DNA of 40,697 nucleotides from a virus (taxonomy: Duplodnaviria; Heunggongvirae; Uroviricota; Caudoviricetes), in IMG/VR virus record IMGVR_UViG_2541047891_000003, one strand, 5' to 3'. Under the pieces are notes generated by a model. That model saw only the letters and a list, made by a program, of their open reading frames with translations, made no database searches and was not told the DNA's origin. Position numbers and translations under genes: made by a program. Shown in pieces: positions 5,072 to 16,868 of this stretch. The stretch's first letter is position 1. Every line of letters begins with the position of its first letter.

Positions 5072-5129
5072 AAAAAGGGCGGCAGAGCAGTCACGGAGTA
5101 AAACTGATACCGCCAAACGTCACCAGAAA
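5072..5129 (-). ncRNA. dicF: DicF small regulatory RNA (ftsZ-targeting sRNA)
   Basis: Minus-strand sequence TTTCTGGTGACGTTTGGCGGTATCAGTTTTACTCCGTGACTGCTCTGCCGCCCTTTTT matches the DicF sequence I recall; ends in a GC stem plus T-run; about 170 nt upstream of dicB as in Qin. Confidence 0.85.
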
Positions 5130-9544: not shown

Positions 9545-9856
9545 ATGAACCAAATGAACACGGAAAAAGCGAAAACGCAGCTCAGGATAATGCTTGCCGG
9601 TCCGGCTGCGAGTTATGCGACACATTCACCAGCCATAAAAAAGGTTCTTGATGAACTGGAGGCCAAAGACAAGCGCATTGCAGAACTGGAGGCAAGGGAA
9701 GTCCAGCTACCGGCTGGCTATGAACTTCGATATGGACACCCGATAAATGCTGATGAGCGCCATGTCATGATACCTAAGGAAAATGGCAGCTGGATTTATC
9801 TGGCTGATTTAGAGCGCGCACTACGTGTTGCTGGCATTCGCATCAAAGGAGAGTGA
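9545..9856 (+). CDS. Hypothetical protein
   Basis: 103-aa ORF; the start may instead be the ATG at 9554. Confidence 0.5.
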   Translation: MNQMNTEKAKTQLRIMLAGPAASYATHSPAIKKVLDELEAKDKRIAELEAREVQLPAGYELRYGHPINADERHVMIPKENGSWIYLADLERALRVAGIRIKGE

Positions 9857-11468: not shown

Positions 11469-11679
11469 TTTTATACCTTTTGTGTTGTGTGAAGGAGCAG
11501 TATAGTCAGAAATGAGACAAGTGAAAGGGGATAGAAAGTAATAGTTTGTTTTTGTAGAATTGCTGCGGGTGCTTGAGGCTATCTGCCTCGGGCATGAACA
11601 CCAACGGCAGATAGAGAAAAGCCCCAGTTAACATTACGCGTCCGGCAAGACGCTTAACATTAATCTGAGGCATATCTGT

Positions 11680-11880
11680 ATGCGACACATAAAGATTAGC
11701 CTCTTAACAGTAAGAAATCAACTAACAGGGGGCTGTAATGCGAAGGAGCTATGTGTTTTGTCTGGTGGTGGTTTGCATCACCATTCTGATATTTGTCGGG
11801 ATGGTTCGCGGTTCGCTATGCGAGCTGCACATCAGGCAGGGAAACACAGAGCTTTCAGCGTATTTAGCCTACGAAGTTGA
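11680..11880 (+). CDS. mok: mok-like overlapping reading frame of a hok-family locus
   Basis: 66-codon ORF starting upstream of, and overlapping in another frame, the hok-like toxin ORF, as in hok/mok/sok loci. Confidence 0.4.
   Translation: MRHIKISLLTVRNQLTGGCNAKELCVLSGGGLHHHSDICRDGSRFAMRAAHQAGKHRAFSVFSLRS
11693..11721 (-). promoter_or_regulatory. sok: Candidate promoter for a Sok-like antisense RNA (minus strand: -35 TTGATT, 17-bp spacer, -10 TAATCT)
   Basis: Promoter-like hexamers on the minus strand positioned so the transcript would be complementary to the mok start region. Confidence 0.35.
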
Positions 11881-15003: not shown

Positions 15004-15052
15004 TTCTCTAACGATGGGCGTTTTATGCCTGACGTTACAAGGATTTTTACAG

Positions 15053-15074
15053 CCCGCCATCGAGCGGGTTTTTT
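15053..15074 (+). terminator. tR'-like Rho-independent terminator (CCCGC-catcga-GCGGG then TTTTTT)
   Basis: 5-bp GC stem plus T-run about 50 nt downstream of the candidate pR' start, implying a short 6S-like transcript. Confidence 0.55.
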
Positions 15075-15209: not shown

Positions 15210-15929
15210 ATGGGTATGGATGACAGCACTCTGCTGAGGAACTCTTCACTTTTTATTGCTTATATGGGCTGTCTTGGATGGGGAAGCGCTTATTTCTATG
15301 GATGGGGGACTTCCTTTTACTATGGCTTTCCATGGTGGATCGTCGGGGCTGGCGTTGATGATGTGGCCCGAAGTTTGTTTTATGCTGTGAGCGTTATCGT
15401 TATATTCCTTACTGGATGGGGAGTAGGTATTGTTTTCTTTTTAGGCATAAAACAAAAAAACAATATACAGAATTTGAGTTTTATCAGACTTTTTCTGGCA
15501 ATATTGCTGCTTTTTATTCCGCCTGTTCTGGAGTTTTCGGTAATTCATCAGCACGTTGAGCCAGATGTGCTGTTTTTTTGTGTTATTGCTGCCTTTACAA
15601 TTACGCTTTTTGTCAGGTCAGGAGGAAGACTTATTTCAGTCAAATGTTTTTCGGAAGTGTCTTTTATTCGCCATCACCGAATTGAGTTTATTATGGCTGG
15701 ATTCATGATTTATTTCTGGACATTCTCTCTTATTGCCGGTTGGTATAAACCTCAGTTTAAGAGGGAATATCAGACGATCCACTATGAGAATACTTGGTAT
15801 TACGTTCTTGCACGCTATGATGATCGTCTGGTTTTATCGAAATCGTACAGTAATGGGAGTTCTGCATTCGTTATACTTAATAGCGGGCAGATTGATGACT
15901 TTGAAATTAATGTAGTCAGAGTTCGTTAA
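15210..15929 (+). CDS. Hypothetical polytopic inner-membrane protein (about 5 TM helices plus a ~70-aa C-terminal soluble domain); moron between Q and the tRNA/lysis genes
   Basis: 239-aa ORF, AT-rich, Trp/Phe/Tyr-rich TM segments; possible own promoter TTGACT-17-TTATGT near 15160; no family recognised. Confidence 0.6.
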   Translation: MGMDDSTLLRNSSLFIAYMGCLGWGSAYFYGWGTSFYYGFPWWIVGAGVDDVARSLFYAVSVIVIFLTGWGVGIVFFLGIKQKNNIQNLSFIRLFLAILLLFIPPVLEFSVIHQHVEPDVLFFCVIAAFTITLFVRSGGRLISVKCFSEVSFIRHHRIEFIMAGFMIYFWTFSLIAGWYKPQFKREYQTIHYENTWYYVLARYDDRLVLSKSYSNGSSAFVILNSGQIDDFEINVVRVR

Positions 15930-16051
15930 TATTGCCTGAGTAACTTTCTGTTGACCGCTCAGATTCTTTTATCATGTGTAGGCCAATATGCAGGATTTAA
16001 TCAGGGTAGGGTATTGCAGAGCTAAACTGGCATAAGTATTATTCCGCATAT

Positions 16052-16127
16052 GGCCCTTTAGCTCAGTGGTGAGAGCGAGCGACTCATAATCGCCAGGTCG
16101 CTGGTTCAAATCCAGCAAGGGCCACCA
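16052..16127 (+). tRNA. ileZ: tRNA-Ile2 (anticodon CAU, lysidine type; could alternatively be tRNA-Met)
   Basis: Cloverleaf with acceptor GGCCCTT/AAGGGCC, anticodon loop CTCATAA, T-loop TTCAAAT, CCA end; close to E. coli ileX as I recall it. Confidence 0.8.
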
Positions 16128-16128
16128 A

Positions 16129-16205
16129 CCGCCACTAGCTCATCAGGAAAGAGCGTCAACCCTTTAAGTTGAGAGTGCGAGGTTCGAGTCCCCGGTGGCG
16201 GTCCA
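16129..16205 (+). tRNA. tRNA with atypical anticodon loop CCTTTAA (anticodon UUU = Lys if canonical; C at position 33)
   Basis: Acceptor CCGCCAC/GTGGCGG, D-arm GCTC..GAGC, anticodon stem TCAAC/GTTGA, T-loop TTCGAGT, CCA end; identity uncertain. Confidence 0.6.
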
Positions 16206-16207
16206 GT

Positions 16208-16283
<76 letters not shown>

Positions 16284-16286
16284 TAT

Positions 16287-16361
<75 letters not shown>

Positions 16362-16367
16362 GTTAGA

Positions 16368-16492
16368 GTCTTTCAGTCTGCGATGATGGGAAATCCCTGA
16401 GTGACTGAAAGACGTTTAAGTTATGAATGATCGCTTTTTTTGCAAAATTGCTGTGCAGAAATACTAACCTTCGGGCAGGCGATCATTCATAA
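16368..16492. repeat. Two long inverted repeats: 11-bp arms GTCTTTCAGTC/GACTGAAAGAC and 14-bp arms TTATGAATGATCGC/GCGATCATTCATAA
   Basis: Perfect arms at 16368-16378/16403-16413 and 16421-16434/16479-16492, between the tRNA cluster and the holin. Confidence 0.7.
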
Positions 16493-16652
16493 GCACTCTG
16501 CTTTTATTCCGATTAACTGTGGGTGGTTTGTTGGATAGAGTGCTTCCCTTACTGTATATATCGTTTCGCCCGTTTTTGCGGTTTTTTCTTTTCAAATCCC
16601 TTTCATTTCTCAGTGTAAAACTACGCCATCCGTTATTTGCGGAGGTGAGGCT

Positions 16653-16868
16653 ATGAAATCCATGGACAAAATTTCAACGGGCATTGCCTACGGCACCTCC
16701 GCAGGCAGTGCTGGCTACTGGTTTTTACAGTGGCTTGATCAGGTCAGTCCGTCACAGTGGGCTGCGATTGGTGTACTGGGGAGTCTGGTTCTGGGCTTGC
16801 TGACGTATCTGACAAACCTTTATTTCAAGATTAAAGAAGATAAGCGTAAGGCTGCGAGAGGTGAATAA
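16653..16868 (+). CDS. S: Class II holin / pinholin (phage 21 S21-like, dual-start MKSM)
   Basis: 71-aa ORF, two TM segments, near-identical to S21 as I recall it; RBS GGAGGTGA upstream. Confidence 0.9.

What the first reader, a model, noticed from the sequence alone, without database searches (positions are those of the whole stretch)
16366..16652. Two long perfect inverted repeats upstream of the holin
An 11-bp-arm and a 14-bp-arm inverted repeat lie back to back in the leader between the tRNAs and the holin RBS. If transcribed from the late promoter they would form large stem-loops; as DNA they could be a regulator binding site or a recombination hotspot at the moron boundary. This structure is not explained by any annotated feature.
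Basis: seen in the sequence. Interest (0 to 1): 0.45.

Follow-up and report, generated by a model that had tools for sequence, protein, structure and literature searches.

The report
Conserved structured RNA trailing prophage tRNAs
The two inverted repeats are real and belong to a conserved, roughly 190-base folded RNA that follows a small tRNA gene cluster in many E. coli-type prophages; it is in no RNA family database and its function is unknown.

Summary
They are hairpins 1 and 2 of a three-hairpin element (window 16362-16543, + strand).

- **Position:** it begins right after the CCA end of the last tRNA of a four-tRNA array, and is followed by a weak terminator-like hairpin.
- **Distribution:** the same element is unannotated in 522 of 5426 complete E. 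coli genomes. Diverged copies (down to about 65% identity) occur in phage HK639, many viral contigs, Shigella, Citrobacter and Phytobacter.
- **Structure:** across 28 non-redundant copies, 96.9% of 56 predicted pairs are kept (41-47% in slid controls). Twelve pairs show compensatory changes, and many G-U pairs work only on the + strand. It is therefore an RNA structure, not a DNA site.
- **Transcription unit:** a sigma-70-like promoter is conserved upstream of the array, and terminators usually follow hairpin 3. Neighbouring Q, holin and endolysin families vary.
- **Known families:** no Rfam 15 family matches. It is not homologous to the PasA/C/D small RNAs.

Best reading: a self-contained tRNA-plus-noncoding-RNA insert in the late leader, whose 3' trailer is released as a stable folded RNA. 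Expression, processing and function are inferred, not shown.

The parts
16014..16042 (+). Putative sigma-70 promoter of the tRNA-RNA unit: TTGCAG (16014-16019), 17-nt spacer, TATTAT (16037-16042), ending 9 nt before tRNA-Met.
   Evidence: Read. The -35 TTGC(A/G)N and -10 TAT(T/C)AT hexamers stay at a fixed distance from the first tRNA in 54 unique upstream contexts, while the spacers and everything further upstream differ. Promoter activity was not tested.
16052..16361 (+). Array of four tRNA genes: Met/Ile2(CAT), Lys(TTT), Thr(TGT), Gly(TCC).
   Evidence: ARAGORN and Rfam tRNA hits of 45-74 bits. In 120 of 173 related loci the element starts 0 nt after the CCA of tRNA-Gly(TCC).
16362..16417 (+). 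Pairs: 16368-16378/16403-16413, then 16380-16381/16401-16402, then 16387-16390/16395-16398. The asymmetric internal loop matches the kink-turn consensus: 3-nt bulge GAU 16382-16384, then G16385.A16400 and A16386.G16399.
   Evidence: Pairs in window coordinates. Covariation at columns 8:51 and 9:50 and G-U/A-U alternation at 14:45. The bases G, A / G, A of the proposed tandem pairs are invariant or 27 of 28. The kink itself is inferred from sequence only. The hairpin is absent from about 15 related loci.
16421..16492 (+). Outer stem 16421-16435/16477-16492. Inner hairpin 2a 16437-16444/16454-16461 with the 9-nt loop AAAUUGCUG. Small CC-UUCG-GG hairpin 2b 16468-16475.
   Evidence: Compensatory changes at columns 62:135, 70:127, 74:123, 75:122 and 84:100. 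Present in all but a few of the 173 nhmmer hits. The 2a loop is nearly invariant even in copies found through the hairpin-3 motif. Hairpin 2b folds in most variants but weakly.
16493..16543 (+). Hairpin 3. Outer stem 16495-16500/16536-16541 (probably also 16493-16494/16542-16543), a 7-nt bulge, then inner stem 16508-16518/16525-16535 in which the GU-rich GGUUUGUUGGA pairs with UCCGAUUAACU.
   Evidence: Four of the six outer-stem pairs show changes on both sides, with several different stem versions. The inner stem shows A-U/G-U alternation.
16568..16593 (+). Weak terminator-like hairpin plus T-run (GCCCGTTTTTGCGG TTTTTTCTTTTC). It is a degenerate copy of the GCCCGC-TTTT-GCGGGC terminator found in close relatives.
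   Evidence: Read. The consensus scan did not flag it. In 70 of 109 unique downstream contexts, one to three clear terminator-like hairpins begin 9-37 nt (median 14) after hairpin 3. The homologous site in HK639 is annotated as a terminator.
16594..16652 (+). Leader of the holin with its Shine-Dalgarno (GGAGG 16641-16645). This is not part of the conserved element; it is shared only with close relatives that carry the same holin.
   Evidence: The alignment with HK639 loses similarity after the terminator. Downstream genes differ among loci.

Best explanation
The repeats are hairpins 1 and 2 of a conserved, three-domain structured non-coding RNA. It is about 190 nt long, or about 230 nt counting the terminator, and lies on the + strand at 16362-16543/16593. 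It forms the 3' trailer of a self-contained tRNA transcription unit inserted in the late-gene leader of lambdoid phages, between Q/tR' and the lysis cassette. Proposed working: a sigma-70 promoter just upstream of tRNA-Met drives the unit in lysogens, and Q-modified polymerase from the late promoter also crosses it during lytic growth. Without Q, transcription stops at the terminator(s) after hairpin 3. Normal tRNA 3' maturation (an RNase E-type cut in the A/U-rich CCA-GUUAAAG linker) frees the trailer as a stable folded RNA. That RNA acts in trans through its invariant loops and a kink-turn-like motif, by binding a protein or another RNA. Shown: the repeats, the family, the strand, the secondary structure, the fusion to the tRNA array, the conserved promoter and terminator motifs, and the independence from neighbouring protein genes. 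Inferred: expression, processing, stability, action in trans and the partner.
For: - **Family:** the same 291 nt occur at 95-99% identity in 522 of 5426 complete E. coli genomes, with no annotated feature in any listed hit, and in 4 phage records. Copies at 65-76% identity occur in phage HK639 and in many viral contigs. The element is also in Citrobacter sedlakii, Phytobacter ursingii and Shigella flexneri.
- **RNA structure on the + strand:** 28 sequences under 97% identical give 56 pairs with 96.9% of cells paired, against 41-47% when partners are slid. Twelve pairs and 70 cells changed on both sides. No shuffle of 500 reached the observed percentage paired, number of cells changed on both sides, or covariation score. 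Frequent G-U pairs would be A-C mismatches on the other strand. Fold z is -4.39 on the + strand and -1.85 on the - strand.
- **Link to tRNAs:** the gap to tRNA-Gly(TCC) is 0 nt in 120 of 173 loci, and most exceptions still carry a tRNA-Gly remnant.
- **Own promoter and terminator:** TTGC(A/G)N-17-TAT(T/C)AT is conserved in 54 unique contexts, in two of them directly abutting the preceding terminator hairpin. Terminators follow hairpin 3 in 70 of 109 contexts and are annotated in HK639.
- **Independence from neighbours:** the element sits next to two Q families (PF03589, PF06323), at least three holin families and two endolysin types, and next to unrelated inserted genes.
- **Invariant loops and a kink-turn consensus** point to specific recognition rather than a generic hairpin.
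- **Not coding:** there are single-base indels and no conserved ORF.
Against: - There is no expression, 5'/3'-end or binding data for this RNA. I found no paper that mentions it.
- No target or partner was found. There is nothing complementary in the window and no special pairing with the array's tRNAs or the holin start region.
- The terminator in this particular window is degenerate.
- In all contexts examined the element lies in the late leader upstream of lysis genes, which fits a cis role equally well.
- Sequence diversity comes from a few clades within Enterobacteriaceae, so part of the covariation count reflects shared ancestry.
- The kink-turn is read from sequence only.
Confidence: 0.5

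Rival explanations
1. Cis-acting 5' element of the late mRNA. Once the tRNAs are cut out of the Q-dependent late transcript, the remaining message for lysis and structural genes starts a few bases before hairpin 1. The stable hairpins would then protect the new 5'-monophosphate end from RNase E, or provide an RNase III processing site that sets lysis-gene expression.
For: The element is co-directional with the lysis cassette and lies upstream of it in the contexts examined. It starts 0-6 nt after the tRNA end. Its stems are long and stable.
Against: A protective hairpin does not need invariant loops, a kink-turn-like motif or three domains. Terminators directly follow the element. Unrelated genes are often inserted between it and the holin. 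The downstream leader is not conserved with it.
Confidence: 0.2
2. Trailer that serves the tRNAs themselves. On this reading the structured 3' external spacer guides or protects 3' maturation of the phage tRNA precursor and, with the terminators, insulates the lysis genes from the constitutive tRNA promoter. It has no function of its own after release.
For: It is fused to tRNA-Gly in most loci. One to three terminators follow. The unit has its own promoter motif.
Against: The element persists where the tRNA is degenerate or absent, directly after protein genes. The conserved loop sequences are unexplained. Host tRNA operons manage with a simple terminator (general knowledge).
Confidence: 0.13
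3. put-like processive antiterminator RNA: back-to-back stem-loops in the nascent transcript bind RNA polymerase and let it read through the terminators that follow.
For: It shows back-to-back stem-loops followed by terminators. It occurs in HK639, a phage I recall (own knowledge, not checked) to use put-type RNA in an early operon. put RNAs are two stem-loops that act on the transcribing polymerase (PMC9378689).
Against: put RNAs are about 70 nt and sit just downstream of the early promoters. This element is about 190 nt with three domains, in the late leader of phages that encode Q. blastn finds no similarity to HK022 and only one place in HK639. If the conserved tRNA promoter is active, constitutive read-through into holin genes would kill lysogens.
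Confidence: 0.05
4. DNA-level element: a palindromic binding site for a regulator, or a recombination hotspot at the boundary of an inserted gene block.
For: It has perfect palindromic arms. Homology between mosaic phages begins and ends at the element or at single hairpins.
Against: Stem positions change in a compensatory way and through G-U intermediates valid on one strand only. Arm sequences differ between clades while the loops are the most conserved parts. A 24-44 nt spacing between arms is unusual for an operator.
Confidence: 0.03

Closest known systems
3'ETS-leuZ: functional 3' external transcribed spacer of the E. coli glyW-cysT-leuZ tRNA operon (Lalaouna et al. 2015, from my own knowledge; it appears as '3'ESTleuZ' in the EPEC RIL-seq tables)
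   Same: An RNA lying between the CCA end of the last tRNA of an operon and the operon's intrinsic terminator, released as a by-product of tRNA maturation and functional in its own right.
   Different: 3'ETS-leuZ is short (about 50 nt), essentially the terminator plus a single-stranded seed, chromosomal, and acts as a sponge for RyhB/RybB. This element is about 190 nt with three covarying domains, is phage-borne, and has no identified pairing partner.
Small RNAs of the insertion site downstream of the late promoter in lambdoid prophages: AgvB/AsxR anti-sRNAs (PMC4104026) and PasA/PasC/PasD (PMC8550237; bioRxiv 10.64898/2026.05.13.724894)
   Same: The same genomic niche, between Q/PR' and the holin-lysozyme cassette. 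They are prophage-encoded, end in intrinsic terminators, and are expressed in lysogens.
   Different: Those are 51-240 nt Hfq-dependent base-pairing RNAs, several of them convergent or antisense to late transcription. blastn finds no similarity between the element and the PasA, PasC or PasD1 loci of E2348/69. This element is sense, fused to tRNAs, and much more structured.
GOLLD and ROOL large ornate RNAs
   Same: Structured non-coding RNAs of unknown function, encoded in phages and prophages, often next to tRNA islands, and sometimes covalently linked to tRNAs (PMC12286853).
   Different: They are 500-800+ nt, found in other bacterial groups, and form homo-oligomeric cages. The Rfam scan, in which I assume models for both exist, gave no match in 15930-16700. 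This element is several-fold smaller and restricted to enterobacterial lambdoid phages.
put antiterminator RNAs of HK022/HK639
   Same: Adjacent stem-loops in a lambdoid phage transcript, upstream of terminators.
   Different: They differ in size (about 70 nt against about 190 nt), location (early against late operon), number of domains, and show no sequence similarity.
Stable RNAs C and D (species 1 and 2) of the phage T4 tRNA cluster (own knowledge)
   Same: Small stable RNAs of unknown function, co-transcribed with and processed from a phage tRNA gene cluster.
   Different: They come from a virulent phage, with unrelated sequences and partly tRNA-like folds. No comparison was run here.

Membership tests
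Any Rfam 15 family | Covariance-model match at or near the family's gathering score | tested here: not met
   The gathering-threshold scan of the window finds only sok, DicF and four tRNAs. The permissive scan of 15930-16700 up to E = 10 gives only scores of 11-18 bits against cut-offs of 38-82 inside the element.
put antiterminator RNA (HK022 type) | About 70 nt made of two stem-loops | tested here: not met
   Three domains over about 180 nt, with a branched hairpin 2. The put description comes from PMC9378689.
put antiterminator RNA (HK022 type) | [quoted passage not shown] | tested here: not met
   It lies downstream of Q and tR', upstream of the lysis genes, in the window, HK639, Citrobacter and Phytobacter.
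put antiterminator RNA (HK022 type) | Sequence relatedness to known put sites | tested here: not met
   Sensitive blastn against 50,697 phage records returns six records, none of them HK022, and a single place in HK639.
put antiterminator RNA (HK022 type) | Suppresses termination in cis through the beta-prime zinc-binding domain | not testable with these tools
   Needs transcription assays.
tRNA-operon 3' external transcribed spacer RNA (3'ETS-leuZ type) | Lies between the 3' end of the last tRNA and the operon's terminator | tested here: met
   It starts at 16362, one base after the tRNA-Gly CCA. The gap is 0 in 120 of 173 loci. Terminators begin 9-37 nt after hairpin 3 in 70 of 109 contexts.
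tRNA-operon 3' external transcribed spacer RNA (3'ETS-leuZ type) | Released by RNase E, bound by Hfq, pairs with and titrates small RNAs | not testable with these tools
   Only an A/U-rich linker (CCA-GUUAGAG in the window, GUUAAAG in most relatives) and a U-tailed terminator are visible. No partner was found.
Prophage Pas sRNAs (PasA/PasC/PasD) | Sequence homology to the E2348/69 genes | tested here: not met
   blastn with word size 7 against the three loci gives only chance matches of 10-33 nt (best E = 0.15).
Prophage Pas sRNAs (PasA/PasC/PasD) | Intergenic position next to the holin-lysozyme operon of a lambdoid prophage | tested here: met
Kink-turn motif (hairpin 1) | Canonical stem, 3-nt bulge, tandem sheared G.A/A.G pairs, then a non-canonical stem | tested here: met
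   At sequence level only: C16381-G16401, bulge GAU 16382-16384, G16385.A16400, A16386.G16399, U16387.U16398, then three G-C pairs. The G and A bases are invariant or 27 of 28 in the alignment.
Kink-turn motif (hairpin 1) | Sharp kink in three dimensions, or binding by an L7Ae-type protein | not testable with these tools
   No RNA 3D tool was available. E. coli has no known L7Ae homologue (own knowledge).
Intrinsic terminator (for the two repeats themselves) | G+C-rich hairpin with a short loop followed directly by a T-run | tested here: not met
   No terminator-like site was called within 16362-16560. The loops are 24 and 44 nt, and neither stem is followed by a T-run.
GOLLD / ROOL | Match to the family model; length of 500-800+ nt | tested here: not met
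   No Rfam match, on my unverified assumption that both families have Rfam models. The element is about 190 nt.

The most novel reading that the evidence does not exclude
This is a previously undescribed class of compact, tertiary-folded phage RNA (kink-turn plus three-way junction). It is made as part of a prophage tRNA transcript and works together with the phage tRNAs. One possibility is a protein-binding decoy or scaffold that protects or regulates them against host tRNA-targeting defences. That would make it a small enterobacterial counterpart of the tRNA-island-associated GOLLD/ROOL RNAs. The neighbouring tRNA with a hypervariable anticodon arm would fit such an arms race.
Probability: 0.2. 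Interest if true: 0.8.

Novelty: new member of a known kind. Interest (0 to 1): 0.55.

Why it matters
About one in ten complete E. coli genomes, including well-studied pathogenic strains such as IHE3034 and APEC O1, carries this element with no annotation in any hit inspected.

- **If it is a stable RNA in lysogens,** it adds a new and unusually structured member to the set of prophage RNAs that act on the host. It would also extend the idea that tRNA spacers are functional from one chromosomal case to a mobile, widespread one.
- **Its fixed fusion to a phage tRNA array** gives a genetically tractable E. coli system for an open question: why do phages place structured RNAs next to their tRNAs (GOLLD, ROOL, the T4 stable RNAs)?
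- **For annotation,** it shows that the minus-strand 'hypothetical protein' called here in some phage records is probably spurious.

Tried and rejected
- **Known RNA family:** two Rfam scans found nothing.
- **Homology to PasA/PasC/PasD of EPEC E2348/69:** none.
- **GcvB mimic or sponge:** only a 10-mer (GGTCTGCGAT) is shared with the HK639-type hairpin 1, there is no antisense match, and the structural context differs. I treat it as chance.
- **Hairpin 1 as a degenerate copy of tRNA-Gly** (MAFFT aligned them, and both contain GATGATG): local alignment is no better than shuffles (p = 0.22 for the window, 0.04 uncorrected for HK639).
- **Pairing of the element with the four tRNAs or with the holin start region:** no better than shuffles.
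- **Targets of the hairpin 2a loop within the window:** matches at chance level.
- **Small protein:** ORFs of 31-78 aa come and go among relatives, and single-base indels are frequent.
- **Riboswitch-like switch between hairpin 3 and the terminator:** a GAGG/CCUC alternative exists in the HK639 type, but by inspection not in the window type or the L073 type.
- **Literature:** searches for exact motif strings gave only unrelated hits. The 2011 HK639 paper (PMC3187212) is not held.
- **Species scan:** the genome-contig scan with a strict hairpin-3 pattern gave only 4 species, so the host range beyond Enterobacteriaceae remains unknown.
- **Not done:** I built no covariance model and did not scan metagenomes.

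Full report
**Observation**

The two repeats are exactly as described: 16368-16378/16403-16413 (11 bp, 24-nt loop) and 16421-16434/16479-16492 (14 bp, 44-nt loop), both perfect. A third repeat follows immediately, at 16491-16499/16537-16545. Perfect inverted repeats of at least 11 nt with short loops occur 5 times in the window, against 0.47 expected. The 14-bp repeat has no equal in the window or in 100 shuffles, and its sequence occurs nowhere else in the window. The + strand RNA of 16362-16652 folds much better than shuffles (z = -4.39); the - strand does not stand out (z = -1.85).

**Setting**

Pfam places the region in a lambdoid late leader. The order of features is:
- a DUF968 protein, RusA, and Q antiterminator (PF03589, 14149-14970);
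- a terminator-like site at 15051-15070;
- a 239-aa ORF without family (15210-15929);
- four tRNAs at 16052-16361: Met/Ile2-CAT, Lys-TTT, Thr-TGT, Gly-TCC;
- the repeats;
- a P21-type holin (16653), lysozyme, Rz and HNH.

The first repeat begins 7 nt after the CCA of tRNA-Gly.

**Relatives**

The 291-nt stretch is present at 95-99% identity in 522 of 5426 complete E. coli genomes. All copies are chromosomal, and no feature is annotated under any listed hit. It is also in four phage records, two of which call a minus-strand 'hypothetical protein' there.

A 76% identical copy lies in phage HK639, between two annotated terminators of the late leader and directly after a tRNA-Gly remnant. Scans of viral contigs with three different conserved motifs, followed by a profile search, gave 173 hits. 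Of these, 132 carry all three hairpins, about 15 carry hairpins 2+3 only, about 9 carry 1+2 only, and a few are single modules. Hairpin 2 is the constant core. A strict hairpin-3 pattern found the element in the representative genomes of E. coli, Shigella flexneri, Citrobacter sedlakii and Phytobacter ursingii.

**It is an RNA structure on the + strand**

Between the window and HK639 alone, all three stems show changes on both sides plus G-U wobbles. On 28 sequences less than 97% identical (alignment A2), RNAalifold predicts 56 pairs in six helices. Counting on that structure gives:
- 96.9% of cells paired, against 41-47% when the 3' partners are slid by 1-3 columns;
- 12 pairs and 70 cells with changes on both sides;
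- none of 500 column shuffles reaching the observed percentage paired, number of cells changed on both sides, or covariation score.

The outer stem of hairpin 3 exists in several different paired versions. Pair 84:100 in hairpin 2a varies within one clade (U-A, U-G, C-G), so the support does not rest on a single split. Many pairs are predominantly G-U (columns 14:45, 19:41, 69:128, 85:99, 145:181, 158:175), and these would be mismatches on the minus strand. This rules out a duplex-DNA site as the selected feature and fixes the strand as that of the tRNAs and late genes.

Caveat: the sequences come from a few related clades, so the counts are inflated by shared descent.

**Anatomy in window coordinates**

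- **Hairpin 1 (16368-16413).** A 13-bp lower stem, an asymmetric internal loop and a 4-bp cap. The loop reads C-G / bulge GAU / G.A, A.G / U.U / GGG-CCC. From my own knowledge of the motif, this is the kink-turn consensus. The four purines are invariant or nearly so. This is a sequence-level match only.
- **Hairpin 2 (16421-16492).** A 15-bp outer stem that opens into hairpin 2a (8 bp, with the nearly invariant 9-nt loop AAAUUGCUG) and a small CC-UUCG-GG hairpin 2b.
- **Hairpin 3 (16493-16543).** An outer stem, a 7-nt bulge, and an inner stem in which the conspicuous GU-rich run is paired rather than free.

The most conserved bases are in loops and junctions, not in stems. This pattern is typical of an RNA that is recognised specifically or folds in three dimensions.

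**A self-contained transcription unit**

- **Upstream.** In 54 unique contexts, a TTGC(A/G)N hexamer, a 17-nt spacer of variable sequence and a TAT(T/C)AT hexamer sit at a fixed distance from the first tRNA. In two of those contexts the motif directly abuts the preceding terminator hairpin. In the window this is 16014-16042.
- **Downstream.** One to three clear intrinsic terminators begin 9-37 nt after hairpin 3 in 70 of 109 unique contexts. The window carries a weakened version at 16568-16593.
- **Junction with the tRNAs.** The element starts 0 nt after tRNA-Gly(TCC) in 120 of 173 loci. Most exceptions keep a tRNA-Gly remnant, but some copies follow a protein gene directly.
- **Neighbours.** The flanking protein genes are not constant. 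Q belongs to PF03589 in the window and to PF06323 in Citrobacter. The holins are P21-type, holin_8/holin_3_7 or others. The endolysins are lysozyme or GH19. Unrelated small genes are often inserted after the element.

The conserved block is therefore promoter - tRNAs - structured RNA - terminator(s): an inserted transcription unit inside the late operon.

**Most likely working**

I infer the following.
- The unit is transcribed from its own promoter in lysogens, and by Q-modified polymerase during lytic growth.
- tRNA 3' maturation cuts in the A/U-rich linker after CCA.
- The trailer survives as a stable RNA of about 190-230 nt, ending in a terminator hairpin and U-tail.
- This RNA acts in trans through protein or RNA binding.

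None of these steps is shown here. I found no partner. There is nothing complementary in the window. There is no special pairing with the array's tRNAs or the holin start region. The only link to GcvB is a chance-level 10-mer.

The main rivals are a cis role at the new 5' end of the late mRNA after tRNA excision, and a role limited to tRNA maturation and insulation. Both are weakened by the invariant loops, by the lack of conservation of what lies downstream, and by copies without a tRNA.

A put-like antiterminator is unlikely for three reasons: size, location and lack of similarity; the presence of Q; and the lethality of constitutive read-through into a holin.

**Comparison with what is known**

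No Rfam 15 family matches. The niche is known to hold small RNAs: AgvB/AsxR (PMC4104026) and PasA/C/D next to the holin-lysozyme operon. The element shows no similarity to the Pas loci, and it differs in size, strand logic and structure.

- **In mode of origin,** it resembles the chromosomal 3'ETS-leuZ spacer RNA (own knowledge).
- **In theme,** as a structured phage RNA beside tRNA genes, it resembles GOLLD and ROOL (PMC12286853) and the T4 stable RNAs (own knowledge).
- **In membership,** it belongs to none of these families.

I file it as a new family within a known kind: a prophage-borne non-coding RNA derived from a tRNA operon.

**Verdict**

The element is a real, conserved and so far undescribed structured RNA whose function remains to be found. 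Interest 0.55.

Noticed in passing
window 16129-16205 (tRNA no. 2 of the array) and homologous arrays in L007-L189: This tRNA keeps its acceptor, D and T arms, but its anticodon arm is hypervariable among otherwise homologous arrays. Variants include Lys(TTT), Arg(TCT), Phe(AAA/GAA), Leu(TAA/CAG), a suppressor-like TTA, and several loops of abnormal length that ARAGORN cannot name. It also has the lowest tRNA score in the window (45 bits). This may reflect selection by anticodon nucleases, or decay into a tRNA-like RNA.
   Followed up: partly
window 16638-16647 / 16694-16703: A perfect 10-bp inverted repeat (TGCGGAGGTG / CACCTCCGCA) pairs the holin Shine-Dalgarno with codons about 14-17. It encloses both Met1 and Met4 of the MKSM dual-start P21-type holin. 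This could be a translational control of the holin/antiholin ratio.
   Followed up: no
window 16014-16042: A sigma-70-like promoter (TTGCAG-17-TATTAT) ends 9 nt before the first tRNA. Its hexamers are conserved in 54 different upstream contexts. It implies tRNA expression in lysogens independent of Q.
   Followed up: partly
window 11567-11740 (+) and 5077-5128 (-): There is a full-length match to the Rfam sok antitoxin RNA family (98 bits) and a DicF RNA (77 bits) elsewhere in the prophage.
   Followed up: no
window 15210-15929 (+): A 239-aa, apparently membrane-spanning ORF with no Pfam match lies between the terminator-like site after Q and the tRNA promoter. It is absent from relatives such as vB_EcoS-689R5. 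It contains a perfect 12-bp inverted repeat at 15374-15385/15445-15456.
   Followed up: no
window 16464-16595 (-): The 43-aa minus-strand ORF annotated as a 'hypothetical protein' in phage records ON470583 and ON470580 overlaps hairpins 2-3 and the terminator. It is not conserved in diverged copies, so it is probably a spurious call.
   Followed up: partly
L079 about 9561-9700; L009, L010, L016, L118: Some copies are truncated exactly at hairpin borders. In L079 an IS3-type transposase ORF starts about 55 nt after hairpin 2. In a group of loci, hairpins 1+2 are followed by unrelated sequence.
   Followed up: no
L001 2505-2514 (HK639 hairpin 1) versus gcvB (L185 190-199): The 10-mer GGTCTGCGAT is shared in the sense orientation with the host small RNA GcvB. 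It is probably chance, but is noted because prophage RNAs that target GcvB are known.
   Followed up: partly
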